This document shows, piece by piece, positions 1 through 28,801 of a stretch of 51,542 bases of DNA. A program made the position numbers and the translations under genes. Within the stretch, counting starts at the first letter, position 1. Every line of letters starts with the position of its first letter. The stretch covers positions 1-51,542 of the forward strand of contig JAFTMY010000090.1 of NCBI GenBank assembly GCA_017452165.1, read 5' to 3'. The stretch is from Clostridia bacterium (lineage in GTDB: Bacteria; Bacillota; Clostridia; Christensenellales; UBA1242). The notes under the pieces are model-generated. The model did no database searches, had not been told where the DNA came from, and was given only the letters and a program-made list of their open reading frames with translations.

Positions 1-306
1 AAGCATTTCAAGAGGTGATACAATTTCTCCGTGAATATATAATCTTATGGATTTTTTTGCATATTTTTTAAACTCTAAATAAATCTCAAAATATTCATCA
101 ACAATAGTATATTTTTTAATTGTGAGAAGTGAATCTTCATATAAGTCTAAAATCCTATAACTTTTATATAAGTAACAAAGAGATAAAACAGGAAATCTTC
201 CATAGCAAACACTTAAATCAGATTTATTTTTTGCAAATACACCAAATCTAAAAACATTATCTGTTTTTATAGCATCATATAACTGCTTTAGATTTTCGTT
301 ATCCAT
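1..306 (-). CDS. hypothetical protein, N-terminal part only (gene runs off the window edge); fourth gene of the RF-like/helicase operon
   Basis: Absent from the ORF track because there is no stop in the window. ATG at 306-304 has AGGAGG a few nt upstream and lies 11 nt after the stop of 318..1031. Open for 102 codons (MDNENLKQLYDAIKTDNVFRFGVFAKNKSDLSVCYGRFPVLSLCYLYKSY...). No family recognised. Confidence 0.5.
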   Translation of the reverse strand, partial: MDNENLKQLYDAIKTDNVFRFGVFAKNKSDLSVCYGRFPVLSLCYLYKSYRILDLYEDSLLTIKKYTIVDEYFEIYLEFKKYAKKSIRLYIHGEIVSPLEML

Positions 307-317
307 AAAACTCCTCC

Positions 318-1031
318 TTATTTCTTAATTTTTATATTTCTTGTTTCTGCCCATCTATCAATAATATCAAAAACATACTCTTCATTTACATCATTATTTT
401 CTACAATCTTTTTAAGTAGATCATTTGATGTTTTATAAGACTGCATAAGTTCATCAATACTTTTCTTTTCTTCTTTAAGTTTTACAACAATATTTTCACT
501 GCCATCTTTTATTGATTGAATCATTTTTGAATTTGATACTAAATTTTCAGCAATATCTTTATTAACAAAATCGCCTACTGCTTGAAGATTTGTATTATAA
601 CTTTCTAAACTTCTCTCAAGTTCCTTTAAGTTATAAGATTTTTTCTTTTCTTCAATTATATTTTCTAGTTTTGAAATTTGTGCTTCTGCCTTTGCTTCAA
701 TTTCATTTACAGATTTTATTCTTGTTTCAATACCTTCAAATGTTGAAATAAGTTTATCAACTTCTTCTGTATACTTGGTTGAACTACGCAAAAATTGATC
801 TACTTTTCTTGTAAGTTCTTCTGATTTTTGAGCCTGTTGTGCTAAACTTTTATGAATCTCATCAAGTTTCGCCTTAGCATCATCTGAAAAAGAGTTTGAT
901 AATTTTTCAATATCACCTTTAAGTGCTGTGTATGTTCCTAAAAACTCATTTAAATCAGACTGAATCGGAACGAGCATATCTCTATATCCTACAAATGCGT
1001 TAATAAGTGAATTAATCTCTTTATTCTCCAT
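318..1031 (-). CDS. coiled-coil protein of unknown function (237 aa)
   Basis: K/E/L-rich heptad-like sequence throughout. AAGGAG lies 9 nt upstream of the ATG. The ATG shares one base with the helicase stop (TAATG at 1031), which indicates translational coupling. Confidence 0.6.
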   Translation of the reverse strand: MENKEINSLINAFVGYRDMLVPIQSDLNEFLGTYTALKGDIEKLSNSFSDDAKAKLDEIHKSLAQQAQKSEELTRKVDQFLRSSTKYTEEVDKLISTFEGIETRIKSVNEIEAKAEAQISKLENIIEEKKKSYNLKELERSLESYNTNLQAVGDFVNKDIAENLVSNSKMIQSIKDGSENIVVKLKEEKKSIDELMQSYKTSNDLLKKIVENNDVNEEYVFDIIDRWAETRNIKIKK

Positions 1032-3460
1032 TATTTTTTCTCCTTAAATTCTTTTAACTTTGCTTTAATATTTTTATGATTATTTTTTATATTTTCTAAG
1101 TCTTGTTTTACAACATCAATTATTAAATTTTGAGCATCAGGATTATCTTCAAAATCTAAGAAAAATTTAACTATATCAGCATCAAGATTTGATTGATTTT
1201 TATTTTCTAGATTTTCCATAAACTCAATAAGTTTTGTTTCACCAGACACTATAAACTGCTCTTTTGCTTCACTTAAAAGACCAATTTGCCAAAGTTTAAT
1301 ACCAGCCTGTTTATTTTTATTTTTAAAGATATAATCTTTATAGATGTTAATTTTTTCAATTTGTTGATAACTTTCATAGTCATTTTCAATCTTTTCTGCA
1401 TAAAACTTTGCGTTATCAAATTGTCCAAGTTTTATAAACTCGTTAATTCTCTCAAAAATTTCATCATCATCAATTTCAAGTTTACTTATAACATCTTCAA
1501 ACTTTTCAAATGAACTTACTCCATCAAGTATATCAAAATGTTCTTTGAAAAATTCAGCGAAATTTGAAACATTTTCTGTCTCAAAGACAAAAATGTTATG
1601 TTTTGCACGAGAAAGTCCAACATAGAAAAGGTTAAAATAATATCTATAAACAGAGTTTTCATCAGCCTGTTTTCTATTAATTGTAAGGTAGTTGAGTCTT
1701 TGCCATTTATCACTGTTAGATGATAAAATATTATATAAAACAACTGTTTCTCTCTCTAAACCTTTGATTTCTGAAATTGTTAAAATTTCCTGTTTTTTGA
1801 AAATTTTTCTAAGTTCATCTTTTGCCTTTTTATCATTAACTAAAATTGTAAAGTTTTCAAATTTTTCATTTTTAAGTTTATCTATAAACTTTTTATCTGT
1901 CGTATAAACTGTATTTGATATTGTGCTTTGGTCAATACTTTCACCTGACAAAACGAAACTATGTGTTCCAAATTGTTTAATATTAATGTTAGATAAACCA
2001 TCTAAAAGTTCAACAATTTTTTTGTTATTTCTATAATTACACTCAAGTTCTGCAACACTTGTTACATCTTCATTATACATTAATTTTTTTAGATATGAAA
2101 AACTAAAATACGAAGGATTTATCATTTGAAGAGCATCACCAACACAGAACATTTTGATTGAAATTTCTTTTAATAAATTTAAGTTAATTTCTGTATAATC
2201 TTGAACTTCATCTATAACAGAAAGTGAATATTTTTTAAATTTATCAAGATTTTTAAGTAAAATGGCTGAAATTTCGTTATTATCAAGTAAATTTTGCGCT
2301 TTTTTAAATTTTTTATATTCCATCGCAATACCATAAATAACTTCACTTTCTTCTTTTGTAAAACTATTAATTCTCTTTTGTTTATAATCTTCTAAACTTA
2401 AGTGTTCAACTCCATTATTATAACAACCAAATATCATACCATAAATTTCTTTATAGATAACAGAGTAAGAAATATTTTTAATTTTAGTCAAACGATTCTT
2501 AAGTTGGTGATTATTTAGTTTTGTTAAAAATACTTTTTCAAAAGTCTCTTCATCACTAAACTCAACATCATTCCCCATAATATCTCTATACAAATCTTCC
2601 AAGAGTTTATAGTCTATATGAGAGTCTAAAAATTTTACCACTTGACTAAGTTTTTTTATTATATTTTCTTCTTTGTCTGCAACAATATATATGCCAAGTC
2701 TATTTTCAATTGCTTTTTTATGATTTCTATCCAAAAACACAATTCTATTATTTTTATAATCATCAATTAAATTTTCAATAGTATTTTTAAAAATTTCTAT
2801 TTTCTTTTTAGTATCAATGAGCAGACCTCTTGAAAAAGTCGTATATAAAATTTTACCCGAGTAATTTCTACAAGCAGTGTAAATTATTTTACTTATACAC
2901 ACATTTGTTTTACCACTTCCAGCAACACCTTGAACAAGAACATTTTCATTTTCAATTTCAACAAGTTTTTCTTGTTTTTCACTAAGCATTGGAAAATTTA
3001 TATACTCTGATGATGATATTAAATATAATTTTTTAAATATACTTTCATCAATTTCTTGATTAAATTTTTCAATTTTTACATTAAATATTTTAGAATTTTT
3101 AATGAAAAAATTAATTCTTTGGTCATTTGTTTTTAAATTATCATTTCCACTCTTTATTTCAAAAAATATTATATCACACTCATTTAATCCAAAGGTTTTA
3201 TCTAATTGAAAACCAAGTTTAAACAAAAATGAAAATTGATTATCGACAGTCTTTACAAAAAAACAATCATTTGTTTTATCATTTTTACCAACTAAATCTT
3301 TAGCAATTTTAGATATACTTTCAGCAATTTTTAATACGAAATTATCTATACCTACTATTTTTTTTGTTTGGTAAAAGAAACTTTCAGTCTTATAAATTTT
3401 TATTTCACTTGAAAGAATTTGTTTACCAATATTTACTTCTAAATTAAATTTATTTTCCAT
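1031..3460 (-). CDS. SF1 UvrD/PcrA-like helicase with an unassigned N-terminal domain (~170 aa) and a helical C-terminal extension (~150 aa)
   Basis: Walker A VQGVAGSGKTN, motif Ia TTFSRG, motif II VIDEVQDY, motif III VGDALQMI, motif IV ECNYRNNKKIV, motif V KGLERETVVL, motif VI YVGLSRAKHNIFVF. The track start (3466) is a TTG. I prefer the ATG at 3460 (MENKFNLEV), which lies 8 nt upstream of the RF-like stop. Confidence 0.85.
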   Translation of the reverse strand: MENKFNLEVNIGKQILSSEIKIYKTESFFYQTKKIVGIDNFVLKIAESISKIAKDLVGKNDKTNDCFFVKTVDNQFSFLFKLGFQLDKTFGLNECDIIFFEIKSGNDNLKTNDQRINFFIKNSKIFNVKIEKFNQEIDESIFKKLYLISSSEYINFPMLSEKQEKLVEIENENVLVQGVAGSGKTNVCISKIIYTACRNYSGKILYTTFSRGLLIDTKKKIEIFKNTIENLIDDYKNNRIVFLDRNHKKAIENRLGIYIVADKEENIIKKLSQVVKFLDSHIDYKLLEDLYRDIMGNDVEFSDEETFEKVFLTKLNNHQLKNRLTKIKNISYSVIYKEIYGMIFGCYNNGVEHLSLEDYKQKRINSFTKEESEVIYGIAMEYKKFKKAQNLLDNNEISAILLKNLDKFKKYSLSVIDEVQDYTEINLNLLKEISIKMFCVGDALQMINPSYFSFSYLKKLMYNEDVTSVAELECNYRNNKKIVELLDGLSNINIKQFGTHSFVLSGESIDQSTISNTVYTTDKKFIDKLKNEKFENFTILVNDKKAKDELRKIFKKQEILTISEIKGLERETVVLYNILSSNSDKWQRLNYLTINRKQADENSVYRYYFNLFYVGLSRAKHNIFVFETENVSNFAEFFKEHFDILDGVSSFEKFEDVISKLEIDDDEIFERINEFIKLGQFDNAKFYAEKIENDYESYQQIEKINIYKDYIFKNKNKQAGIKLWQIGLLSEAKEQFIVSGETKLIEFMENLENKNQSNLDADIVKFFLDFEDNPDAQNLIIDVVKQDLENIKNNHKNIKAKLKEFKEKK

Positions 3461-4457
3461 TAACAATTATATCACTTGAAATTATCTTCAAATCTCCGTT
3501 TAAAATTTGTTTTAAATTATATTCTTTTTTTGTTTTTTGACACACAACAATATTTCTATCATAATTAAAAATAATTGTTGGCGTAGATGAAAAAAGTGCA
3601 TTTTTTATGTTTTTTCTTTGAATTTCTATATCATTTTTACTATCTTTTGATATTTTTTCTAAAATTTTCTTTTCTAAATTTTCAAATGCTCGCTTTTTAT
3701 TCATCACTTGCGAGCGTTCATCTTTACACACAACAACAATACCTGTTGGTTTATGAATAAGTCTTATTCCACTTTCAGTTTTGTTGATATGCTGTCCACC
3801 CGCCCCATCTGATTTTAGTGTTTCAATTTCTACATCATCAGTGCTTAATTTAAAATTATTATCTTTTATATTTAAAATGACAACTCCAAAAACCGTCTCA
3901 TTTCCTGCAGTAATCATTTTAACATTACCTGAAAAAATATTCAAATCATCATATATATTATCACCTATAATTTCAATCAAGGTATTGTTTTCATTTTGAT
4001 TTATTACAACAAACTCACAATTGTTCATTTTTGCATATAAACTAAATAAGTTAATAATGTTTGCAAATTTCTCACTATCCCCAGTTTTCAAAGTAATCTC
4101 TATTTTTATCTTTTGATTTAACTTTTCATCTGATTTTACAAGTTCATTTTTCATTTGATTAAAAAGTATATTGCTCTTTTCGGACAAACTTTTATTTTGT
4201 ATTATCAATTGGTTTTTTATTTCTGAACTTTCTTCAATTGTTAAAAGTTCTTCATTGTCTTCTATTTCTAATTTTAATTTTTTAAATTCTTTAAATAGTG
4301 TTACAATTTTTTCTAAAGACTTATATTTTTTTTGATAATATAAAAAAAGTTTATTATCCATCATTATTTCCACAGACTCAAGTAATTCGCCTATTTCATC
4401 ATACTCTTTTTCTTTCTCATTAAACTTTACCATAAATGTTTTGTCTATTTTTTCCAT
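3450..4457 (-). CDS. class-I peptide chain release factor (RF1-like) paralogue with a conserved GGQ domain and a degenerate decoding region
   Basis: SDGAGGQHINKTESGIRLIHKPTGIVVVCKDERSQVMNKKRA matches the RF GGQ domain (GGQ codons at 3792-3800). The N-terminal helical region has an RF1-like pattern. Where RF1 has RVPxTExxGRxHTS, this protein has MITAGNETVFGVV. No PxT or SPF motif is present and the segment is about 9 aa shorter. No obvious SD upstream. Confidence 0.8.
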   Translation of the reverse strand: MEKIDKTFMVKFNEKEKEYDEIGELLESVEIMMDNKLFLYYQKKYKSLEKIVTLFKEFKKLKLEIEDNEELLTIEESSEIKNQLIIQNKSLSEKSNILFNQMKNELVKSDEKLNQKIKIEITLKTGDSEKFANIINLFSLYAKMNNCEFVVINQNENNTLIEIIGDNIYDDLNIFSGNVKMITAGNETVFGVVILNIKDNNFKLSTDDVEIETLKSDGAGGQHINKTESGIRLIHKPTGIVVVCKDERSQVMNKKRAFENLEKKILEKISKDSKNDIEIQRKNIKNALFSSTPTIIFNYDRNIVVCQKTKKEYNLKQILNGDLKIISSDIIVNGK

Positions 4458-4677
4458 AATAACATAATAACAAATTTTGATTGATTATACAATTAATAAA
4501 AACATATTATCTCATAATTTATAATATTTAACATTTTTTTTAATAATATTTAATAACTTACATAATATTATTTCAATATTTTTTTAAAATATGGTATATT
4601 ATTATTGGAAATGTTATTTGTTAATCATTTTTTTATTAAAATTAATAGACATTTCAAACTAATATGGAGATGAAATT

Positions 4678-11241: not shown

Positions 11242-11433
11242 AATACCTTTATTTTATATCATTTTTATTTTTTATGCAATAAAATATTATAATTTTATTA
11301 TAATTTTATGGTTAAGATTTACAATTACCTATCAATTTTATTGTTTTTATTCATTCAAAATCTAAGTTTTTACTTGATAATAAAACTGTTTTTATTATAT
11401 AATAATAAAAAAGCGTATTATGAGGTAATTATT

Positions 11434-14217
11434 ATGAATAATGAACAACAGTCTAATGTTTCTCCACAAGAAAAATGGAACCAAGTAGCAAGAGATGGAA
11501 ATTTTACTTATTATACTATGCAACGAATACCACAAGAGTTTCAAACACAAGAATTATGGCAAGCATTTGCAAGAGAAAATAACTATGATGTATACTCTTG
11601 TAAATCTGTTCCTGAAAAGTTTCAAACTCAAGAAATGTGGAATAATGCATTCCATAATATCTCAATATCTAGATGCCACCCTTGTAGTTTAAAAAGAATC
11701 CCTGCAAGATTTCAAACTCAAGAAATGTGGAATAGACTTGTAAAAAGTAATAAACTAGAATCTTATGAACTTAGCCAAGTTCCACAAGAATTCCAAACAC
11801 AAGAAATGTGGGATAGTTTTGTTAGAAATACATCTTATAAAGAAATTCGAGAAATTCCTCGCCAGTTTCAAACACAGGAGATGTGGGATAGTTTTGCTAG
11901 GCAAACTACAAATATAAATGATTTAAGCAATATTCCTTTAAGACATCAAACACAAGAAATGTGGAACAGTTTTGCTAGACAAACTACAAGAACTTATGAT
12001 TTAGACAGAATTCCAATACAATTTCAAACACAAGAAATGTGGGATAGAGCATTTAAGTCTCTTAATTTAACTAGTCTTTTTAGTTTGAATTCTATACCTG
12101 AAAGATTCCAAACAAAAGAAATGTGGCAGGATTTTGCTAAGAGTGTAAACTATGCTAATTATCAATTAGAAAATATACCTAAACAATTCCAAACAAGAGA
12201 AATGTGGCAAGAATTTGCAATGAATAATAATTTTAATATTTATTCGCTATCAAGAATTCCTGTTGAATTTCAAAGTCAAGAGATGTGGCAAACAGCAATT
12301 AATAATGTGCCAGATAAAGAATTTAATATATTTAAAGTAAATGATATCCCTAGACAATATCAAACTCAACAAATTTGGGATAGGCTTGCAAAGACATCAA
12401 AATATAAAAGCCACGTTTTATCTAAAATTCCAACTGAGTTTCAAACACAGGAAATGTGGGATAACTTTGCTAAATCAAATAATTACGCATCTTATGATAT
12501 GTCTAATATTCCAGCAGCATTTCAAAACCAAGAAATGTGGAATGCTTTCGCTTTAAATAATAAATTTGAATCTTATTTTTTAAAAAAGATTCCTGAGAAA
12601 TTCCAAACAAAGGGAATGTGGGATAAATCTGTTCAAAGTGAAAATTTTGCCAATACTTATGATGTTCCAGAAAAATATCAAACTCAAGAAATGTGGATCG
12701 AATATGTAAAATTTTATAAATTTAATGTAAAACCATCTGCTATTCCTGATAAGTTTAGAAAGCAAGTTGTTGAACTTATGGACCAAGAACAGAAAAAAGT
12801 AAAAAACCAAAAAGTTGATGAAATTCATCTTGAAACTGTTGAAAATTTAAAGCGTTTTATCTCAAACAATGCTATGAAATCTCCAGAAACTCAAAAAAAG
12901 TTCGAAGCATTTTTAAAAATGTCAAAAGAAGAACAAATCGTTAATATGGATAAATTTTATTGTCTTGCTAGAAGAGATTTCTTAATGATAAATGGAGAAT
13001 TAAATAGAGAAAATTATACAGATAATATAATTGAAATTATAAAATCATCATCTGATATTTTAATCGATACTCATATTTCAATCGAAAAGCAAGTAGAACA
13101 AAAAAATCCTAATGCTATTAAGTATTTTATCCAAAGAAAAAATGTATTAAAAGGACAACTTGAAAAAATAGCACAAAACAAAAGTTTATCACCAACTCAA
13201 TCTAAAAATATTAAACTTTTACTTGCTAGATTAAACTTAGCCTCAAAAACTATAACATCTTCAAATATGAAATTAGAAGATGTTAACAATAAATATCCTT
13301 TTAAATTAGAAGAAGCGCCACCTAAGGAACAAACAGTTATTGAAAACAACATTACAAAATCTGAACAAAAACCTAATGAACAATCACAAATAGAAACTGA
13401 AACTGTAAAAAATAGTGAACAGCCTACCGTTGTAAAAACTGAACCTGTAAAGCATGGCGAAAAAACTCAAGTTGTTACTCAACCTGTTAAAAAGAATGAA
13501 CAACCTACAAAAGTTAATCTTGAGTCTAAACCTAAAACTAACACTAATGCCGTTAAACCTAAGGCTCAACCTACCGTTGTAAAAACTGAACCTGTAAAAC
13601 ATGGCGAAAAAACTCAAGTTGTTACTCAACCTGTTAAAAAGAACGAGCAACCTACAAAAGTTAATCTTGAAGCGAAGGCTAACGAAAATCCACAACTTAA
13701 AGCAATTGTTGGAACTGAAAATTCTGCCGAATTTAATCAGTTACTCCAAAACTTCACATCAATTCATGCAAGTTATTATGATGGCGTAAAAGGAACAAAA
13801 GGTCATGCTCACACACAAGAAGAAATACAAACAAAAATGGCAATTAATAAGAAAATGAAAAAGATTTTAGAAAGCAAATCTCAAAATCTTGCAAATCTTG
13901 AAAATGATGAACAATCAAAGCAAAATCTTTTTTCACAAATTTCTAATCCAGTAAATGAAATTGACATTGAAGAAGTTGCTTCAAATGAAGGTGCTTTTTT
14001 AAGACTTTTAAGCATAATGTCTAATGGTGTTTATGAGAAAAATGGTGTTAGAACTAGACTTACAATGAAACAAAGAACAGCACTTGCAAATGTTATGGTA
14101 AAAGTTTCAGAAAAACGACTTGCAAAAGAAAATACTGCCAAGAAAACTGCTAATTCAAATAAAGATAAATCAAAAATCAATCAAAATGATTTAGAAAATG
14201 CTGGTCGCCAATTATAA
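11434..14217 (+). CDS. large repeat protein (927 aa): about 15 tandem 25-33 aa IPxxFQTQEMW repeats, a helical middle region and a K/Q/P/T-rich repeat tail
   Basis: The track ORF starts at 11308, but GAGGT lies 7 nt before the ATG at 11434 (MNNEQQSNV). The upstream 42 codons are low-complexity. No signal peptide seen. Confidence 0.8.
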   Translation: MNNEQQSNVSPQEKWNQVARDGNFTYYTMQRIPQEFQTQELWQAFARENNYDVYSCKSVPEKFQTQEMWNNAFHNISISRCHPCSLKRIPARFQTQEMWNRLVKSNKLESYELSQVPQEFQTQEMWDSFVRNTSYKEIREIPRQFQTQEMWDSFARQTTNINDLSNIPLRHQTQEMWNSFARQTTRTYDLDRIPIQFQTQEMWDRAFKSLNLTSLFSLNSIPERFQTKEMWQDFAKSVNYANYQLENIPKQFQTREMWQEFAMNNNFNIYSLSRIPVEFQSQEMWQTAINNVPDKEFNIFKVNDIPRQYQTQQIWDRLAKTSKYKSHVLSKIPTEFQTQEMWDNFAKSNNYASYDMSNIPAAFQNQEMWNAFALNNKFESYFLKKIPEKFQTKGMWDKSVQSENFANTYDVPEKYQTQEMWIEYVKFYKFNVKPSAIPDKFRKQVVELMDQEQKKVKNQKVDEIHLETVENLKRFISNNAMKSPETQKKFEAFLKMSKEEQIVNMDKFYCLARRDFLMINGELNRENYTDNIIEIIKSSSDILIDTHISIEKQVEQKNPNAIKYFIQRKNVLKGQLEKIAQNKSLSPTQSKNIKLLLARLNLASKTITSSNMKLEDVNNKYPFKLEEAPPKEQTVIENNITKSEQKPNEQSQIETETVKNSEQPTVVKTEPVKHGEKTQVVTQPVKKNEQPTKVNLESKPKTNTNAVKPKAQPTVVKTEPVKHGEKTQVVTQPVKKNEQPTKVNLEAKANENPQLKAIVGTENSAEFNQLLQNFTSIHASYYDGVKGTKGHAHTQEEIQTKMAINKKMKKILESKSQNLANLENDEQSKQNLFSQISNPVNEIDIEEVASNEGAFLRLLSIMSNGVYEKNGVRTRLTMKQRTALANVMVKVSEKRLAKENTAKKTANSNKDKSKINQNDLENAGRQL
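11470..12770 (+). repeat. in-frame tandem array encoding the (I/V)Pxx(F/Y)QTQEMWxxFAxxxxYxxYxLxx repeat
   Basis: FQTQEMW-type cores recur about 15 times, for example at ~11620, 11710, 11791 and 11866. Spacing varies from 75 to 99 nt. The last cores are at ~12670 and ~12745. Confidence 0.75.
13420..13671 (+). repeat. two near-identical ~105-bp segments, 147 bp apart, encoding QPTVVKTEPVKHGEKTQVVTQPVKKNEQPTKVNLE
   Basis: Copy 1 is 13420-13524 and copy 2 is 13567-13671, with only a few substitutions. Confidence 0.85.
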
Positions 14218-14325: not shown

Positions 14326-15702
14326 TTAAGCACCTTGAGCAAGTCCAACATTTTCAATTTCTCTCTTGTTTTGATTTGCTCTTGCTTTTTGTTGAACTGC
14401 ACCTTGTCTATTTCTTGCGTTTTCTTCTTCAAGTTTTTTATCCATCGCTGTAAGTTCTTTTAAAATTGTTGCTGAGTCATATTTTTGAACTACTACTGTT
14501 GTAAGTTTTGATTCAAGTTTTGCAGTATCGAAGTTAAATTCTCCCACCATTTTTCTATCATTAATACATTCATTTCCATAAACTTGGAACACATCTTCAA
14601 GTAGTTTACTTGAAAGTGTTTGGATTAAATTAATGATATTTTCTTCTCTTTGAGATGCTGGTTTATAAGGTGGTTTATTTGCATCATTAAAGTTTTTATT
14701 CCAATTCATAACTGGTTTAAAGCACTCATCTTTTTTAATTTTTAAAGTGCTTAAAACTTGTTGAGCAATATGGTTTCTTGCCATACTCTCTATTCTTCTA
14801 CCTTCTGCAAAATATTCAGCAGATGCAATTCTTTGACCTTTTTTAATTCCAAGACCTCTAATTTCAACAGGAGGTTTTGGTTTACCATTTTCATCAAGTT
14901 CTCTTTCAGTTGTAAAGCATCTGCACTCATCAAACCACTCTGGGTGTTCTTGGGTAAGTGCGAGATATGTTTCCATAGGACCATTACCACAATTTACAAT
15001 TACATCATCAGGGAGCATTCTTGGTGCTTCGCCTTTTTCAATAAAACCTTGACATCTTGAGATATTTCTTTGTCTACTTGTGTTATTTGAAACATGAACA
15101 AGATCCATTGTAACACTATAACCACTATTTCTAGCATCAGTTATAAGTGTTTCCATCCAACCGATTTCATCACCAACTTTTTCTTGAATAAAGTTTACCT
15201 TTTTTTCTTGTAACTTTTTAACTAAATCTCTAAAAATATTACCACCTGCTGGGTGAATATCTGGGTGATTGATATCAATATTATAAAATTTAGCAACATC
15301 TTCTTTTACTGCGTCCATATTAGCATGATACGCTCTAAGTTGCTTTTTTAACGCATTAATAGTTGTTGTTTTACCAGCACCTGCAAGACCCATTACAAAC
15401 GCCATTTTTGAACTGCTAGCAAGTTCACCTGTCTTCATTTTGTTTGTAATATCAGCCATTGTATTAGTAATATACTGATCTTTAAATGCTTTGAATTTTG
15501 GACTATTTGTATCAACAACAGAACTTGTCGAAACTCTACTTAATCTATTAGCCTCAGCCTTAGTCATATTATACTTTTCAGCAATTTGTTCTTCTGAAAG
15601 TTGAGGTCCTTTTCCCATAATGATATAACAATCTGGTGGTGGGACTCTGCTCATAACTTCGCTAAGTTGCTCTTTTGATAATCTTGCTGAATAATCTGCC
15701 AT
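14326..15702 (-). CDS. zeta-toxin-like P-loop kinase-fold protein with N- and C-terminal extensions (458 aa)
   Basis: Walker A MGLAGAGKTT. The following NMDAVKED...HPDIHP and GYSVTMDLVHVSNNTSRQRNISR resemble zeta/PezT blocks as I remember them. I prefer the ATG at 15702 (MADYSARL), which has GGGGGA about 8 nt upstream and lies 1 nt after the upstream TAG stop. GC is visibly higher than in neighbouring genes. Confidence 0.6.
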   Translation of the reverse strand: MADYSARLSKEQLSEVMSRVPPPDCYIIMGKGPQLSEEQIAEKYNMTKAEANRLSRVSTSSVVDTNSPKFKAFKDQYITNTMADITNKMKTGELASSSKMAFVMGLAGAGKTTTINALKKQLRAYHANMDAVKEDVAKFYNIDINHPDIHPAGGNIFRDLVKKLQEKKVNFIQEKVGDEIGWMETLITDARNSGYSVTMDLVHVSNNTSRQRNISRCQGFIEKGEAPRMLPDDVIVNCGNGPMETYLALTQEHPEWFDECRCFTTERELDENGKPKPPVEIRGLGIKKGQRIASAEYFAEGRRIESMARNHIAQQVLSTLKIKKDECFKPVMNWNKNFNDANKPPYKPASQREENIINLIQTLSSKLLEDVFQVYGNECINDRKMVGEFNFDTAKLESKLTTVVVQKYDSATILKELTAMDKKLEEENARNRQGAVQQKARANQNKREIENVGLAQGA

Positions 15703-15703
15703 A

Positions 15704-16204
15704 CTATCTATCCCCCATTTCAAAACCCGAATGCATCATTTGTTTTTCATATTCACTAAATTGATTTTTATTAAATCCAAAATGAGCAACCGCTTGTTCG
15801 CCTGTTACTTGTTTATTTTTCACAAGGTCATTTGCTTTTCTAAGGTCCTCGACTTTTAAACCCTTAACATATTTTCTAAGGTCTTCTTTTGACATTACAT
15901 ATTGAAAAAATGCAAGTGGGTCGTCAAAATTTTTCCAAGCAGAAATGAAATCACTTTTAATTTCAATAACTGCAATATCATCAATATAATTTTGAACTTG
16001 CTCTTTTACCATTTCAGTAAAATCTTTACTATCGAGTTTTTCATCAATAGCACCACTTTCAAAAGTCTTATAAAGACCTGCATTTGATGATGACACCATT
16101 TCTAAAAAATAGTCTGGAAAAATTCTAAAGAAATCCACATAATTTGATAAAACTTCGTTTGCATTTTCATAAGCCACACCATATTTTTTGCTTGATTTAT
16201 CCAT
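15704..16204 (-). CDS. hypothetical protein (166 aa), upstream partner of the zeta-like gene
   Basis: GGAGGT lies 8 nt before the ATG at 16204 (MDKSSKKYG). Ends in TAG, 1 nt before the next start. No family recognised. Confidence 0.6.
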   Translation of the reverse strand: MDKSSKKYGVAYENANEVLSNYVDFFRIFPDYFLEMVSSSNAGLYKTFESGAIDEKLDSKDFTEMVKEQVQNYIDDIAVIEIKSDFISAWKNFDDPLAFFQYVMSKEDLRKYVKGLKVEDLRKANDLVKNKQVTGEQAVAHFGFNKNQFSEYEKQMMHSGFEMGDR

Positions 16205-16303
16205 AAATGCACCTACCTCCACAATAATTTTAATTTTTATTTACTCTATTTTATAATATTTTAAATCATAATGCAATATTATATTTGAATTTTACAAAAA
16301 TAG

Positions 16304-26488: not shown

Positions 26489-28801
26489 TTAATTTTTCAA
26501 TAAATTTATGCCTATTATTGTCATATCGTCCTTATGTTTTTGATTTTGAAACTCAACATCAGCAATAACTTCGTCTAAATATTTTTTTACATCAAAAATT
26601 TTAGAATCATTAATAAAGTTTTTATAATCATCAATTGAGCGAAAAGCATCTACAACACCATCACTTGCTAAAAATATCATATCACCTGCTGTTATTTGTT
26701 TTTTTATAATTGTTGGTTTTATATTTTGAACCATACCAATTGGCAAACTATCACACACAACAACTTCGCTAGTATTTTTATGTTTTATTACAGAGACACT
26801 TGCACCGAGTTTTATAAAAGTGCAAACTGCATTTTCTAAATCTATTACGCATGCATCAAGGGTTGTAAAATTATCAAGACCAGCAGGAAGAAGTAGTCTA
26901 TTAACAGACTGAATAATAAGGTCTTCTTCAAAGCCCACTTCAAAAAGAGATTTTATGAGCGAAAGCACCATTGAAGATATTTTATTTGCTTTTTCGCCAT
27001 GTCCCATACCATCAGCAATAGCAACAAAAAATCTATTTTCATCAAGTTTTTGAATAACAACATTGTCTCCGTTTTGACTTTCTTTTGATTTTGTAGAAAC
27101 TGAAAACATTGTTTTTATTTTACTAATTGGCAAAAATGTTGCATAACTCAGTCCCGAATATTCAATGTGTTTTACATCTTTTATCTTAACCCTATTTTTA
27201 ATAACCTTATAAATAGTATCTTGCATTTCTTTTTTTAAAATCTGCTCATTGGTTGAAATTATATTAACTGATTTAATACCAGACTTATTTTCAAAAATAG
27301 CAACTTCTTTTACATCTACCATACTAGATAATAAACTATCTTTTAAAATTTTTGACAACCTTTCATTAATGTTTGAAAAATTATCTATCATCTTCGAAAA
27401 ATTAAAAAATATACTTGAAAAGTTTTGAAGTTCATTTGCAATAACAAGTTTACTTTCATCTTCACTCTTCATTGTATTTTCATAAGATAAATATATTTTA
27501 GCAATTTTATTAATTTCATTTAATATAAAATTACTTTTTACGCAGTAAGACTGAATACCATTAGTTAAGTCAACAGGTGTTATTCCATTATAGTCAATTG
27601 ATTTTTTTATAAGTTCTTCAAATAATAATTTTTTATCAATATTACCCATAAAACAGGTTTTATAATATTCACAGTTATTGCAACAATTATTAATAACATC
27701 AATCGAAAGTTCACTACAAGCCTTGACCCTATCAATTTTACCAACAAGCAAAAACTTAAAACTATTTTGCATTGAAGTAAGAGTATTTGACATTAGCAAT
27801 AGTTTATTTTTTACAATTTGGATTTTATTATCATTTGTGAATTTATAGATATAATTAATCTCATCTTGCAAAAATAAATTTGATGCTTTTAAAAGTAAAT
27901 TATTAGGGAACAAAATAAAAATTAGAATTGCAAATAAAATTGAAATTATATTTAAAATAATAGAAATATTAAATACAAAGGTAAATGCAATCATTATCGC
28001 TGTGCTAATAAGTGAAAAAATAACCTTGTTAATATCTCTAAATTCTGAAAGAATAATTGAAATTAAAATTGTGTAAAGTAACATATTTATATTATTTGAC
28101 GCAATGACAAGCCCCAGCGAAAATAGTGTTGATAATATTAAAAATTTATCTGGTTTAAAAATTTTACATACAAATAAAATAAATAAATTAATAATTAAAT
28201 AGCATAAAAATATTGCAACAAATTTGTAACTAAAAAGACCAACTGATAAAAGAAGTTCAGCAAAAAAAATCAAAAAATAATCATATCGAGAAAATTTGCA
28301 AAATATTATTTTCTTTTCACACGAATTAAATAATTTATAAAAAAACAGCAAAATAACACACTCTATCACTAAATTTATAGCGAAAAACACAAGTGATTGC
28401 ACATTTGTTAAATCAAAATAAAGTTTAAGTGCATTAGATAAAAACAAAAAAATATATAGAAGAAAAATGGTTTTTTTTGTTTTTAAAAATTCACGTGTGA
28501 AATGATAAAGAAGCAAAATAATTATTTCATACATTGTCGAAACTAAAATATTTATATCAAAAAACATAAATATTTTAGATAAAAAATAAAAACAAACAAT
28601 TGATAAAATCTTCCCGTTAAAATAAATTCTTGTAAAAGCATAAGGCAAACCAATGGCACAAATAACTCTGCAAAAAACTATACGTGAGAAAAAAATCTGC
28701 ATAAGGCCATAGCAGAGTTCTTTTAAACAAACAATTAGTTTTGCCTTTAAATTTTTCATATTAATATGATAATAAAAACAGTTCAAGTTATCATCATACA
28801 A
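26489..28801 (-). CDS. spoIIE: SpoIIE-like membrane PP2C phosphatase
   Basis: About 10 TM segments in the N-terminal half. C-terminal PP2C/SpoIIE domain (FFVAIADGMGHGEKANKIS, MIFLASDGVVDAF, DDMTIIGINL). Lies directly upstream of tilS, as in Bacillus and Clostridium. Start codon uncertain. Confidence 0.75.
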   Translation of the reverse strand: MYDDNLNCFYYHINMKNLKAKLIVCLKELCYGLMQIFFSRIVFCRVICAIGLPYAFTRIYFNGKILSIVCFYFLSKIFMFFDINILVSTMYEIIILLLYHFTREFLKTKKTIFLLYIFLFLSNALKLYFDLTNVQSLVFFAINLVIECVILLFFYKLFNSCEKKIIFCKFSRYDYFLIFFAELLLSVGLFSYKFVAIFLCYLIINLFILFVCKIFKPDKFLILSTLFSLGLVIASNNINMLLYTILISIILSEFRDINKVIFSLISTAIMIAFTFVFNISIILNIISILFAILIFILFPNNLLLKASNLFLQDEINYIYKFTNDNKIQIVKNKLLLMSNTLTSMQNSFKFLLVGKIDRVKACSELSIDVINNCCNNCEYYKTCFMGNIDKKLLFEELIKKSIDYNGITPVDLTNGIQSYCVKSNFILNEINKIAKIYLSYENTMKSEDESKLVIANELQNFSSIFFNFSKMIDNFSNINERLSKILKDSLLSSMVDVKEVAIFENKSGIKSVNIISTNEQILKKEMQDTIYKVIKNRVKIKDVKHIEYSGLSYATFLPISKIKTMFSVSTKSKESQNGDNVVIQKLDENRFFVAIADGMGHGEKANKISSMVLSLIKSLFEVGFEEDLIIQSVNRLLLPAGLDNFTTLDACVIDLENAVCTFIKLGASVSVIKHKNTSEVVVCDSLPIGMVQNIKPTIIKKQITAGDMIFLASDGVVDAFRSIDDYKNFINDSKIFDVKKYLDEVIADVEFQNQKHKDDMTIIGINLLKN

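What the first reader, a model, noticed from the sequence alone, without database searches (positions are those of the whole stretch)
1..4457. Translationally coupled operon: degenerate RF1-like GGQ protein, SF1 helicase, coiled-coil protein and an unknown fourth protein
Seen in the sequence: four minus-strand genes are packed with coupling signatures.
- The helicase ATG (3460) lies 8 nt upstream of the RF-like stop.
- The helicase stop and the coiled-coil start share TAATG at 1031.
- The fourth gene follows after 11 nt and has AGGAGG as RBS.
- The helicase has every SF1 motif (GSGKT, DEVQD, VGDxxQ, NYR, YVGLSRA). It also has ~170 N-terminal and ~150 C-terminal residues that I cannot place.
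- Sampled lines in this block look more AT-rich than the housekeeping genes nearby.
Established knowledge: RF-family proteins that have lost stop-codon reading (ArfB, and PrfH paired with RtcB2) act on stalled or damaged ribosomes. UvrD-like helicases also recur in antiphage systems, for example GajB of Gabija.
Inference: I know of no described module that pairs a class-I RF paralogue with an SF1 helicase. This is therefore a candidate ribosome-targeting conflict or quality-control system.
Basis: partly seen in the sequence, partly recalled or inferred. Interest (0 to 1): 0.75.

Follow-up and report, generated by a model that had tools for sequence, protein, structure and literature searches.

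The report
Stop-blind release factor paired with helicase
An uncultured group of gut Clostridia carries a conserved operon in which a release-factor copy that can still cut peptides off tRNA, but can no longer read stop codons, is tightly coupled to a helicase-like ATPase, a coiled-coil protein and membrane surface proteins; no such combination turned up in my literature searches, and it points to an unstudied way of handling ribosomes.

Summary
Four minus-strand genes are translationally coupled at the stated coordinates. They are the first four genes of a five-gene operon that the contig end cuts off.

The RF-like protein is a full-length class-I release-factor paralogue.
- Its GGQ catalytic core is about as conserved as in canonical RF1.
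- The PxT loop is deleted, and the alpha5-tip and switch-loop motifs are lost.

The RF-like/helicase adjacency holds in more than 20 genomes of uncultured Clostridia (GC 27-55%) with different flanking genes, so the link is functional and not accidental.

The locus is not a defence island.
- Its flanks are housekeeping genes, its GC3 matches its neighbours, and no phage relatives were found.
- Within the window's lineage its chromosomal position is fixed.

A more distant helicase clade has helicase, coiled-coil and surface protein but no RF-like gene. The RF-like gene therefore joined an existing membrane-anchored ATPase module.

Best reading: a codon-independent peptidyl-tRNA hydrolase that serves as the ribosome-rescue arm of this module. 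The mechanism is inferred, not shown.

TAG is used as a stop codon, so a canonical RF1 must exist elsewhere, but I could not show this directly.

I classify it as a new variant of the specialised release-factor kind (PrfH/ArfB-like), with partners not found in the literature I could search.

The parts
3450..4457 (-). RF-like gene (RFL, 335 aa): a full-length class-I release-factor paralogue with four RF domains. GGQ is kept and stop-codon reading is lost.
   Evidence: Pfam PCRF and RF-1 hits. prfA TIGR00019 scores 145 bits against a cutoff of 423 over the full length. AF2 model has pLDDT 87, and the best PDB matches are ribosome-bound RF1, mtRF1 and RF2. Alignment to canonical RF1.
3792..3800 (-). 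GGQ catalytic tripeptide (G220-G221-Q222) within the invariant block GAGGQHINKTES.
   Evidence: Read directly from the sequence. Invariant in 44 family members. GGQ core is 69% pairwise identical within the family and 65% to canonical RF1.
3906..3911 (-). Site of the 8-residue deletion (between T183 and A184) that removes the PxT stop-codon-recognition loop.
   Evidence: Alignment A1: canonical 'RVQRVPxTExxGRxHTS' against 'KMIT--------AGNETV'. The same loss is seen in distant family members.
3450..3460 (-). 11-nt overlap of the RF-like stop (TAA 3452-3450) with the helicase start (ATG 3460-3458).
   Evidence: The equivalent junctions in relatives range from -14 to +11 nt.
1031..3460 (-). SF1A (UvrD-like) helicase/ATPase (HEL, 809 aa) with family-specific N- and C-terminal domains.
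   Evidence: Pfam UvrD-helicase 5.5e-12. AF2 model has pLDDT 79, and the best PDB matches are UvrD, PcrA and Rep at 11-13% identity. All ATPase motifs are invariant in 21 diverse members.
2990..3460 (-). Helicase N-terminal alpha/beta domain (residues 1-157), unassigned. The RelE/ParE-like topology is my own unverified lead.
   Evidence: Secondary-structure order from the model. No Pfam, NCBIfam or PDB profile hit. hhalign against E. coli RelE is in register but has E about 0.02 and probability about 2%.
2906..2920 (-). Walker A motif GSGKT (residues 181-185).
   Evidence: G181, G183, K184 and T185 are invariant; S182 is nearly invariant (>=90%).
2198..2212 (-). Helicase motif II, DEVQD (residues 417-421).
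   Evidence: Invariant.
1034..1573 (-). Helicase C-terminal all-helical domain (residues 630-809), unassigned.
   Evidence: The model is all helices from residue 632 to 808. No family hit. Conserved across the family.
1029..1033 (-). TAATG junction: helicase stop overlapping the coiled-coil start.
318..1031 (-). Coiled-coil protein (CC, 237 aa) with conserved N- and C-terminal ends.
   Evidence: Only weak coiled-coil-type hits. 57-90% identical in relatives. Follows the helicase in every locus where that stretch is on the contig, including the loci that lack RFL.
312..317 (-). AGGAGG ribosome-binding site for the fourth gene.
1..306 (-). First 102 codons of the fourth gene (G4). This is the cytoplasmic N-terminal domain of a 607-771-aa single-pass membrane protein with a GLUG-repeat ectodomain. 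It is cut off by the contig end.
   Evidence: 88% identical to the N-terminus of the full-length L005 orthologue. One TM helix at about residues 155-185 with basic residues before it. The GLUG motif is above Pfam's cutoff in 2 of 4 orthologues.
4458..4677 (.). 220-bp AT-rich intergenic region shared with divergently transcribed gpsA. It is the presumed promoter region of the operon.
   Evidence: Position only. The promoter-like sites in this region are not above chance.

Best explanation
The window holds the first four genes of a five-gene operon found in a group of uncultured gut Clostridia.

The five genes are:
- RFL, the RF-like protein.
- HEL, a UvrD-like SF1 ATPase of about 810 aa.
- CC, a coiled-coil protein of about 237 aa.
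- G4, a single-pass membrane protein with a cytoplasmic N-terminal domain and a large GLUG-repeat ectodomain.
- G5, a small 2-TM protein.

What RFL is:
- A class-I release-factor paralogue that keeps the GGQ peptidyl-tRNA-hydrolase domain under canonical-level constraint.
- It has lost every element that reads a stop codon.
- I therefore read it as a codon-independent peptidyl-tRNA hydrolase that depends on its partners for targeting.

What the partners are:
- HEL, CC and G4 form an older, membrane-anchored, ATP-driven module.
- The RFL gene was added upstream of that module in one branch.

Most likely role: RFL releases nascent chains from ribosomes that this membrane-bound ATPase complex meets or dislodges. 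Such ribosomes could be stalled on mRNAs at the membrane, or left on transcripts that the helicase clears. On this reading RFL is a dedicated ribosome-rescue arm of a lineage-specific housekeeping machine, not the cell's RF1 and not a mobile antiphage island.

Shown:
- The gene anatomy and the pattern of motif loss and retention.
- The conserved adjacency and translational coupling.
- Fixed chromosomal position within the window's lineage and housekeeping flanks in every clade examined.
- The existence of RFL-less versions of the module.

Inferred:
- Catalytic activity on ribosomes.
- A physical complex between the proteins.
- The nature of the substrate.
For: RFL anatomy
- Full-length RF fold.
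- GAGGQHINKTES..DERSQ is invariant in 44 members.
- The PxT loop is deleted, the GxGGxEA alpha5 tip is lost with a 3-aa deletion, and the switch-loop motif is replaced.
- Pairwise identity within the family is 69% for the GGQ core but 29% for the decoding domain. Canonical RF1 decoding domains are 78% identical.
- Distant members keep GGQ while losing PxT, and two of them (L028, L030) also lose domain 4.

Linkage
- RFL sits directly upstream of HEL in the window's lineage: 11 GTDB species genomes plus 7 further loci.
- The same holds in five further clades with GC 31-55% and unrelated flanks.
- Junctions are overlapping or no more than about 20 nt apart throughout.

HEL is probably an active ATPase
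- Walker A, motif II, motif III Q, motif IV R and motif VI R are invariant in 21 sequences down to 26% identity.

Constraint
- HEL is 59-84% and CC 57-90% identical across the lineage. GpsA is 66-97% and RelA 41-92% over the same genomes.

Membrane anchoring
- G4 has one TM helix with basic residues before it, and G5 has two TM helices.
- GLUG motif in G4.

Housekeeping setting
- Flanks include relA, gpsA, tilS, spoIIE, asd, eno, ksgA, metG and rpsF-ssb-rpsR.
- GC3 is native.
- No relatives in viral contigs.

An older core without RFL
- Loci L025, L070 and L071 carry HEL-CC-G4 and no RF-like ORF.

A decoding RF1 is still needed
- Stop codons in long ORFs of the window and 12 related loci are TAA 147, TAG 33 and TGA 10.
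Against: - No biochemical evidence exists for any of the proteins.
- The closest helicase folds are DNA helicases (UvrD, PcrA, Rep), so the module may act on DNA and not on mRNA or ribosomes.
- The core module works without RFL in one clade, so the ribosome link may be peripheral.
- Nothing ties HEL, CC or G4 to the ribosome independently. My RelE-like reading of the HEL N-terminal domain failed every profile test.
- The non-GGQ domains of RFL evolve fast, which also fits relaxed selection on a partly redundant protein.
- I could not show that a canonical prfA coexists in the same genomes; none lies in the window or in any fetched locus.
Confidence: 0.45

Rival explanations
1. Antiphage or abortive-infection system. 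The surface protein G4 senses phage contact or DNA entry. The membrane-tethered UvrD-like helicase acts on the incoming nucleic acid. RFL aborts translation by releasing peptides prematurely.
For: - Weak PADLOC GajB-type hits for HEL, best 2.7e-13.
- The G4 ectodomain evolves fast (32-42% identity), as expected for a phage-exposed protein.
- A membrane sensor plus a helicase resembles Zorya- or Gabija-type logic (my knowledge).
- A zeta-toxin-domain gene lies 10 kb away.
Against: - Within the window's lineage the locus sits at one fixed chromosomal site in every genome examined, and in other clades the flanks are also housekeeping genes.
- No GajA/OLD nuclease or other known defence partner is present, and RFL has no PADLOC hit.
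- GC3 is native.
- No relatives in 2.9 million viral contigs.
- HEL is as conserved as core enzymes, unlike typical defence genes.
Confidence: 0.15
2. DNA-directed membrane machine in which RFL has no ribosomal role. HEL-CC-G4 would act in repair, chromosome handling or DNA uptake at the membrane. RFL would be a co-opted structural or regulatory subunit, for example a tRNA-shaped adaptor.
For: - The best structural matches of HEL are the DNA helicases UvrD, PcrA and Rep, and it hits a phage DNA-helicase PHROG.
- A DNA-alkylation-repair gene lies just upstream in two clades.
- The module exists without RFL.
- The non-GGQ domains of RFL are poorly conserved.
Against: - The GGQ core is held at 69% pairwise identity, with GAGGQHINKTES invariant in the window's lineage, and GGQ survives in every clade. 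That constraint is hard to explain unless the loop still works in the peptidyl-transferase centre.
- The whole RF fold is retained at high model confidence.
Confidence: 0.17
3. Envelope-protein biogenesis or signalling module. HEL and CC serve the large surface protein G4, in its export, anchoring or signalling. RFL tunes or terminates translation of the operon's own membrane proteins in cis.
For: - The invariant core is HEL-CC plus one or two large surface proteins carrying GLUG, Flg_new or M26_N-like repeats.
- The cytoplasmic N-terminal domain is the best-conserved part of G4, at 45-58% against 32-42% for the whole protein.
- All junctions are tightly coupled.
Against: - I know of no precedent for an SF1 helicase in protein export or surface-protein signalling.
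- Nothing in the sequences suggests a stalling or leader peptide.
- This reading overlaps partly with the best explanation, since both place the action at the membrane.
Confidence: 0.13
4. RFL is simply the organism's RF1 (prfA), very divergent, and lies next to an unrelated helicase by chance.
For: - The best NCBIfam hit is prfA over the full length.
- No canonical prfA was seen in the window or in any fetched locus.
Against: - prfA scores 145 bits against a cutoff of 423.
- The PxT loop is deleted and the alpha5-tip and switch-loop motifs are lost.
- The decoding domain is 29% identical within the family, against 78% among canonical RF1s.
- Domain 4 is missing in the L028 and L030 members.
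- TAG is used as a stop codon in 17% of long ORFs.
- The adjacency to HEL is conserved in six clades with different flanks.
- The family is cleanly separated from 356-aa canonical RF1s of Clostridia.
Confidence: 0.03

Closest known systems
PrfH (RF-H) with RtcB2
   Same: Both are class-I RF paralogues that keep GGQ, have lost normal stop-codon reading, and are encoded in a conserved operon with a nucleic-acid enzyme that defines their job (PMC1586002, PMC9304027, PMC6514570).
   Different: - PrfH lacks domain 1 and is about 200 aa. RFL keeps all four domains.
- The partner is an SF1 helicase with coiled-coil and membrane proteins, not an RNA ligase.
- PrfH-RtcB spreads by horizontal transfer. 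This operon keeps a fixed chromosomal site within the window's lineage and has housekeeping flanks in the other clades.
- TIGR03072 scores 78.7 bits against a cutoff of 166.65.
ArfB / ICT1 / mtRF-R (C12orf65)
   Same: A GGQ domain is used for codon-independent peptidyl-tRNA hydrolysis on stalled ribosomes or large subunits.
   Different: - Those proteins are a stand-alone GGQ domain plus a basic C-terminal tail that probes the empty mRNA channel.
- RFL has full domains 1, 2 and 4 and no such tail.
- The ArfB model scores 40 bits against a cutoff of 100, and only over the GGQ loop.
- ArfB works alone, whereas RFL is always coupled to HEL.
Canonical RF1 (prfA), and RF2 recruited by ArfA or BrfA
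   Same: RFL has the same four-domain fold and a near-identical GGQ core. ArfA and BrfA show that a partner protein can replace the stop codon as the trigger for a class-I RF.
   Different: The PxT loop, alpha5 tip and switch loop are lost, so the stop-codon-reading elements of the decoding domain no longer exist. The candidate partner is an 810-aa ATPase and not a small peptide.
Eukaryotic eRF1-Upf1 (SURF complex) and Vms1-Cdc48
   Same: This is a functional analogy only. A release-factor-type protein works with an SF1 helicase (Upf1) or another ATPase (Cdc48) in surveillance of aberrant translation. Vms1 is a stop-codon-blind RF homologue.
   Different: The protein families are unrelated (aeRF1 fold against bacterial RF fold). 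HEL is UvrD-like SF1A, not Upf1-like SF1B. Nothing here has been tested.
GajB of Gabija; HelD
   Same: All share a UvrD-like SF1 core. There are weak PADLOC GajB hits and Foldseek hits to HelD-RNA polymerase complexes.
   Different: - No GajA is present.
- The GajB hits are partial (47 bits).
- HelD matches have TM-scores of 0.25-0.36 at 11-13% identity, no better than UvrD.
- The N- and C-terminal domains are specific to this family.

Membership tests
Peptide chain release factor 1 (prfA, TIGR00019) | Score at or above the curated equivalog cutoff | tested here: not met
   145 bits against a cutoff of 423.25. NF001859 gives 144 against 400.
Peptide chain release factor 1 (prfA, TIGR00019) | PxT tripeptide 'anticodon' loop and the adjacent GRxHTS | tested here: not met
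   An 8-residue deletion lies exactly at the loop, and the flanking residues are unrelated. The same is true in distant clades.
Peptide chain release factor 1 (prfA, TIGR00019) | GGQ motif and the surrounding domain 3 | tested here: met
   GAGGQHINKTES is invariant. The core is 65% identical to canonical RF1.
Peptide chain release factor 1 (prfA, TIGR00019) | Four-domain architecture (domain 1, domains 2/4, domain 3) | tested here: met
   Profile match covers residues 4-331 of 335. Model has pLDDT 87 and matches ribosome-bound RF1 and RF2 with TM-scores of 0.56-0.64.
Peptide chain release factor 1 (prfA, TIGR00019) | Being the genome's decoder of UAA and UAG (single essential copy) | not testable with these tools
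   There was no whole-genome access. The indirect evidence is that TAG stops are in use and that the decoding domain is unconstrained.
PrfH (TIGR03072) | About 200 aa without domain 1, and a score above the cutoff | tested here: not met
   78.7 bits against 166.65, matching only residues 201-299. RFL has domain 1.
PrfH (TIGR03072) | Operon partner RtcB RNA ligase | tested here: not met
   No RtcB appears in any of the more than 20 loci whose called genes or ORFs were read.
ArfB (NF006718) | Stand-alone GGQ domain plus a basic C-terminal tail | tested here: not met
   40 bits against a cutoff of 100, over residues 200-235 only. The architecture is different.
SF1A UvrD/Rep/PcrA-like helicases (PF00580) | Pfam score above gathering, with helicase motifs I, Ia, II, III, IV, V and VI | tested here: met
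   46.4 bits against 23. Motif residues are invariant. Top Foldseek hits are UvrD, PcrA and Rep.
SF1A UvrD/Rep/PcrA-like helicases (PF00580) | DNA-dependent ATPase and unwinding activity | not testable with these tools
   This needs biochemistry.
Gabija GajB | Full-length GajB profile match and an adjacent GajA (OLD-family nuclease) | tested here: not met
   Only partial hits, best 47 bits over residues 363-561. No GajA appears in any locus.
HelD (RNA-polymerase-recycling helicase-like protein) | N-terminal secondary-channel arm and a clamp-opening insertion | tested here: inconclusive
   Foldseek E-values are about 1e-8, but TM-scores are 0.25-0.36 at 11-13% identity, no better than UvrD. The domain-level comparison was not possible.
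RelE/ParE superfamily (for the helicase N-terminal domain) | Profile or fold match to RelE/ParE toxins | tested here: inconclusive
   No Pfam, NCBIfam or PDB-profile hit. hhalign against E. coli RelE aligns in the expected register, but with E of 0.016-0.027 and probability of about 2%.

The most novel reading that the evidence does not exclude
The operon encodes a previously unknown bacterial surveillance machine. In it, a membrane-anchored SF1 helicase complex engages ribosome-mRNA assemblies, or coupled transcription-translation-insertion assemblies, and uses an A-site effector.
- In the older clade the effector would be the helicase's own N-terminal domain, which may have a RelE-like fold.
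- In the window's clade it would be a separate stop-codon-blind release factor that took over this role.

That would make it a bacterial functional analogue of eRF1-Upf1 or Vms1-Cdc48, and a further independent class of specialised bacterial release factor after ArfB and PrfH.
Probability: 0.2. Interest if true: 0.85.

Novelty: new variant of a known kind. Interest (0 to 1): 0.62.

Why it matters
The 2019 survey of bacterial release factors that I read (PMC6514570) treats RF1, RF2, ArfB and PrfH as the widespread versions. Each specialised paralogue (ArfB, PrfH) revealed a distinct ribosome-rescue or repair pathway.

This family is a further clade.
- It is full-length and stop-blind, and its catalytic core is intact.
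- Its obligate genomic partners are an SF1 helicase, a coiled-coil protein and membrane surface proteins. None of these has been linked to bacterial translation termination or rescue in the literature I could search.

If the link is functional, several things follow.
- It would show how a helicase and a release factor cooperate in bacteria.
- It would give a natural experiment, with RFL-containing and RFL-less versions of the same module.
- It would add a lineage-specific housekeeping system to abundant but uncultured gut Clostridia of ruminants, humans and other animals.

It also serves as a caution. A UvrD-like gene next to an odd gene is not automatically a defence system.

Tried and rejected
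1. Defence-island reading.
- PADLOC gave only partial GajB and coiled-coil noise, and nothing for RFL.
- Flanks are housekeeping genes.
- No viral relatives.
- Rejected as the primary explanation.

2. Alternative genetic code.
- The window has 34 TAA, 3 TAG and 0 TGA stops, which raised the idea that TGA is reassigned or unassigned.
- Relatives do use TGA as a stop, including an ATGA overlap in L007.
- Rejected.

3. Direct proof that a canonical prfA coexists.
- None lies in the window or in any fetched locus.
- Matching 'longest contig' lengths between canonical RF1 hits and operon proteins gave nothing.
- Unresolved.

4. PDB sequence search with the helicase found no hit at E = 0.01.

5. RelE/ParE assignment of the helicase N-terminal domain.
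- Negative or insignificant in Pfam, NCBIfam, PDB-profile and hhalign tests.
- The viral scan meant to build a RelE profile returned almost only identical Qin-prophage copies.
- Kept only as a lead.

6. Ankyrin-like reading of the G4 cytoplasmic domain found no support.

7. Promoter and terminator scans were not above chance in this AT-rich DNA.

8. Net charge per domain of RFL against canonical RF1 was not discriminating.

9. Rfam and tRNA scans of the window found nothing.

10. Literature searches for an RF-like/helicase module found none.

Full report
**Observation**

The window is the terminal 51.5 kb of a 54,150-bp ruminant-gut metagenome scaffold. NCBI attributes it to a 'Clostridia bacterium' MAG. 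On the minus strand lie four genes:
- an RF-like gene (RFL, 4457..3450, 335 aa);
- a helicase gene (HEL, 3460..1031, 809 aa from the ATG);
- a coiled-coil gene (CC, 1031..318, 237 aa);
- a fourth gene that starts at 306 and is cut off by the contig end.

RFL and HEL overlap by 11 nt. HEL and CC share TAATG. An 11-nt gap containing AGGAGG precedes gene 4. All the SF1 motifs are present. Pfam confirms PCRF and RF-1 domains in RFL and a UvrD-helicase domain in HEL.

The block is about one standard deviation lower in GC than the other genes of the window. Its third-position GC is ordinary for this genome, so it is compositionally native.

**The RF-like protein**

RFL matches the prfA model over its whole length, but at 145 bits against a cutoff of 423. 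A search of 5.8 billion proteins finds a discrete family of about 90 clusters. Its members are 309-341 aa long and 34-65% identical to the query. The family is cleanly separated from canonical 356-aa RF1s, which are about 31% identical.

Alignment with canonical RF1 shows the following:
- an 8-residue deletion that removes the PxT loop and the neighbouring GRxHTS;
- loss of the GxGGxEA alpha5 tip, with a 3-residue deletion;
- replacement of the switch-loop motif GDRSEKIRTYNxPQxRVTDHR;
- an invariant GGQ block, GAGGQHINKTES...H.PT...DERSQ..N.

Within the family the GGQ core is 69% pairwise identical, and it is 65% identical to canonical RF1. The decoding domain is only 29% identical within the family, against 78% among canonical RF1s.

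The AF2 model (pLDDT 87) is a complete four-domain class-I RF. It is closest to ribosome-bound mtRF1, RF1 and RF2.

RFL is therefore a maintained, folded protein whose only strongly constrained part is the peptidyl-tRNA-hydrolase loop.

**The helicase and the other genes**

HEL has a UvrD-like SF1A core. Foldseek's best matches are UvrD, PcrA and Rep at 11-13% identity, and HelD, Ighmbp2 and Upf1 are no better. There is no PDB hit at the sequence level. The ATP-binding and arginine-finger residues are invariant in 21 members down to 26% identity.

HEL carries a family-specific alpha/beta N-terminal domain of about 157 aa and an all-helical C-terminal domain of about 180 aa.

CC has no family assignment beyond coiled-coil noise.

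Full-length orthologues of gene 4 (G4, 607-771 aa) have three parts:
- a conserved cytoplasmic N-terminal domain of about 150 aa;
- one TM helix preceded by basic residues;
- a large, fast-evolving ectodomain with GLUG motifs.

A fifth gene (G5, 72-98 aa, two TM helices) overlaps the end of G4. In many genomes a HAD-family hydrolase gene overlaps or abuts G5.

**Conservation and context**

In the window's own lineage the cluster RFL-HEL-CC-G4-G5 is present in every genome examined. That covers 11 GTDB species representatives and several further MAGs and contigs. It always lies at the same site: relA - DNA-alkylation-repair - gpsA (divergent) | operon | HAD .. dNK .. recD2.

Identities to the window's proteins across this lineage are:

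| Protein | Identity to window |
|---|---|
| HEL | 59-84% |
| CC | 57-90% |
| GpsA | 66-97% |
| RelA | 41-92% |
| RFL | 37-63% |
| G4 | 32-42% |

An exhaustive representative search found full-length HEL relatives at 38-45% and at 31-35% identity.

In the 38-45% group, RFL again lies directly upstream of HEL, although the flanks are unrelated:

| Locus | GC | Flanking genes |
|---|---|---|
| L024 | 41% | chorismate synthase |
| L028 | 47% | not annotated here |
| L029 | 31% | aminotransferase, LysR |
| L030/L031 | 39% | metG-tatD-ksgA |
| L032 | 55% | short contig, flanks not seen |

Those RFLs keep GGQ and lack PxT. Two of them (L028, L030) also lack domain 4, and L030 carries a Gly/Ser/Thr-rich insert. 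The adjacency therefore survives genome rearrangement, which is the standard signature of functional coupling.

**An older core without RFL**

In the 31-35% HEL clade, three independent loci (L025, L070, L071) carry HEL-CC-G4-like genes. None has an RF-like ORF anywhere in the fetched DNA, even when two RFL profiles are run without filters.

L070 keeps the alkylation-repair gene just upstream of HEL. That looks like a remnant of the arrangement in the window's lineage.

The parsimonious history is that HEL-CC-surface protein is the ancestral module, and that RFL was inserted upstream of HEL in one branch.

**Not a defence island, and not the cell's RF1**

Evidence against a defence island:
- Flanks are housekeeping genes everywhere. 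In the window they include tilS, spoIIE, asd, aspartokinase, ldh, eno, ABC exporters and a P-type ATPase.
- No integrase or known defence partner is present.
- PADLOC gives only partial GajB hits, and nothing for RFL.
- No relative exists in the viral contig collection.

On the genetic code, stop-codon use in long ORFs of the window and 12 related loci is TAA 147, TAG 33 and TGA 10. The code is therefore standard, and UAG needs a decoding RF1. RFL, with its PxT loop deleted and its decoding domain unconstrained, is not a credible candidate. A canonical prfA must lie elsewhere.

**Mechanism**

The commitment I make is this: RFL is a stop-codon-independent peptidyl-tRNA hydrolase whose targeting is supplied by the HEL-CC-G4-G5 complex.

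*Shown:*
- the pattern of retained and lost motifs;
- the coupling and co-inheritance of the genes;
- the membrane topology predictions;
- intact ATPase motifs in HEL.

*Inferred:*
- the proteins form a complex at the membrane;
- HEL uses ATP to act on a nucleic acid, either mRNA or DNA under a transcription-translation assembly;
- RFL frees the nascent chains of the ribosomes involved.

*Rivals:*
- a chromosomally fixed antiphage system;
- a DNA-directed machine in which RFL is a non-catalytic adaptor;
- a surface-protein biogenesis or signalling module;
- RFL as the cell's only RF1, which is very unlikely.

*A lead I could not confirm.* The HEL N-terminal domain has the strand/helix order of RelE/ParE toxins. 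In the RFL-less clade it carries a motif, F.FRS.IKGHRILF...DIVL..Y..HD, that resembles RelE's KIKLRSSGYRLVY. hhalign places the two in register, but with E of about 0.02 and probability of about 2%. Pfam, NCBIfam and PDB profile searches are negative. If the resemblance is real, both versions of the module would carry an A-site-directed element.

**Comparison with known systems**

The closest known kind is the specialised release-factor paralogue defined by its operon partner (PrfH-RtcB) or acting alone (ArfB). RFL fails the membership tests for prfA, PrfH and ArfB.

The 2019 survey of bacterial release-factor diversity that I read treats RF1, RF2, ArfB and PrfH as the widespread versions and mentions no helicase association. 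Four further full-text searches found no description of such a module. NCBI names the protein only 'PCRF domain-containing protein'.

The eRF1-Upf1 and Vms1-Cdc48 systems of eukaryotes are functional analogies, not relatives.

**Verdict**

The pairing is real and conserved, and I found no prior description of it. The defence framing is not supported.
- The function is still inferred.
- I rate it as a new variant of a known kind, with moderately high interest.

Noticed in passing
window 1-51542 (all 37 long ORFs): No gene in the window ends in TGA (34 TAA, 3 TAG). Relatives do use TGA as a stop (10 of 190 long ORFs), so this reflects extreme AT bias and not recoding.
   Followed up: yes
window 14326-16222 (-): A 465-aa protein with a zeta-toxin (UNAG-kinase-type) domain overlaps by 20 nt with an upstream 172-aa ORF that has no family hit. 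This may be an epsilon/zeta-like toxin-antitoxin pair, or a fused kinase, on the chromosome.
   Followed up: no
window 11308-14217 (+) and 35523-37913 (-): Two large ORFs (969 aa and 796 aa) have no Pfam hit at 1e-4. The first lies in a stretch of strongly positive AT skew (12-14 kb).
   Followed up: no
window 26489-28801 (-): A SpoIIE phosphatase gene is present, so this low-GC, uncultured lineage probably retains at least part of the sporulation programme.
   Followed up: no
L030 7096-7929 (and L031): The RF-like protein of this clade carries a Gly/Ser/Thr-rich low-complexity insert (GSGGTSGTGGKSGTGGKS) where the PxT loop would be. It ends soon after the long helix that follows the GGQ domain and has no domain 4. 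Its catalytic motif reads SGSGGQ and not SGAGGQ.
   Followed up: partly
L007 14163-16205: The public gene call for G4 reads through an in-frame TGA. In fact G4 stops there, and the G5 start overlaps it as ATGA. This is a gene-calling artefact, not recoding.
   Followed up: yes
L008 6773-8862 vs L009 6772-8862: relA/spoT is split into 649-aa and 56-aa ORFs in the NCBI MAG, but is intact (696 aa) in the re-assembly of the same population. This is a probable assembly frameshift.
   Followed up: no
L007, L008, L021-L023 (downstream of G5): A HAD_2-type hydrolase gene overlaps or abuts the end of G5 (-20 to +20 nt) in most genomes of the lineage. A second HAD gene (PF12710) follows it. The first HAD gene is missing in L005. 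The operon may therefore extend to six or seven genes.
   Followed up: partly
L071 11118-17029: In the RF-less clade the helicase and coiled-coil genes are followed by two large surface proteins (753 aa with Flg_new repeats; 1168 aa with faint M26_N and GLUG hits). The window's lineage has a single G4 plus G5.
   Followed up: partly
L025 4102-4767: The 221-aa protein upstream of the RF-less helicase has an N-terminal TM segment followed by 'ATGAWFSYS'. From memory, this resembles SipW-dependent (TasA/camelysin-type) signal peptides.
   Followed up: no
window 3450-4457 vs PHROGs: PHROGs holds a full-length phage release-factor family (phrog_19918, profile of 355 positions) that RFL matches at 117 bits. 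Phage-encoded class-I RFs therefore exist and could be compared with this family.
   Followed up: no
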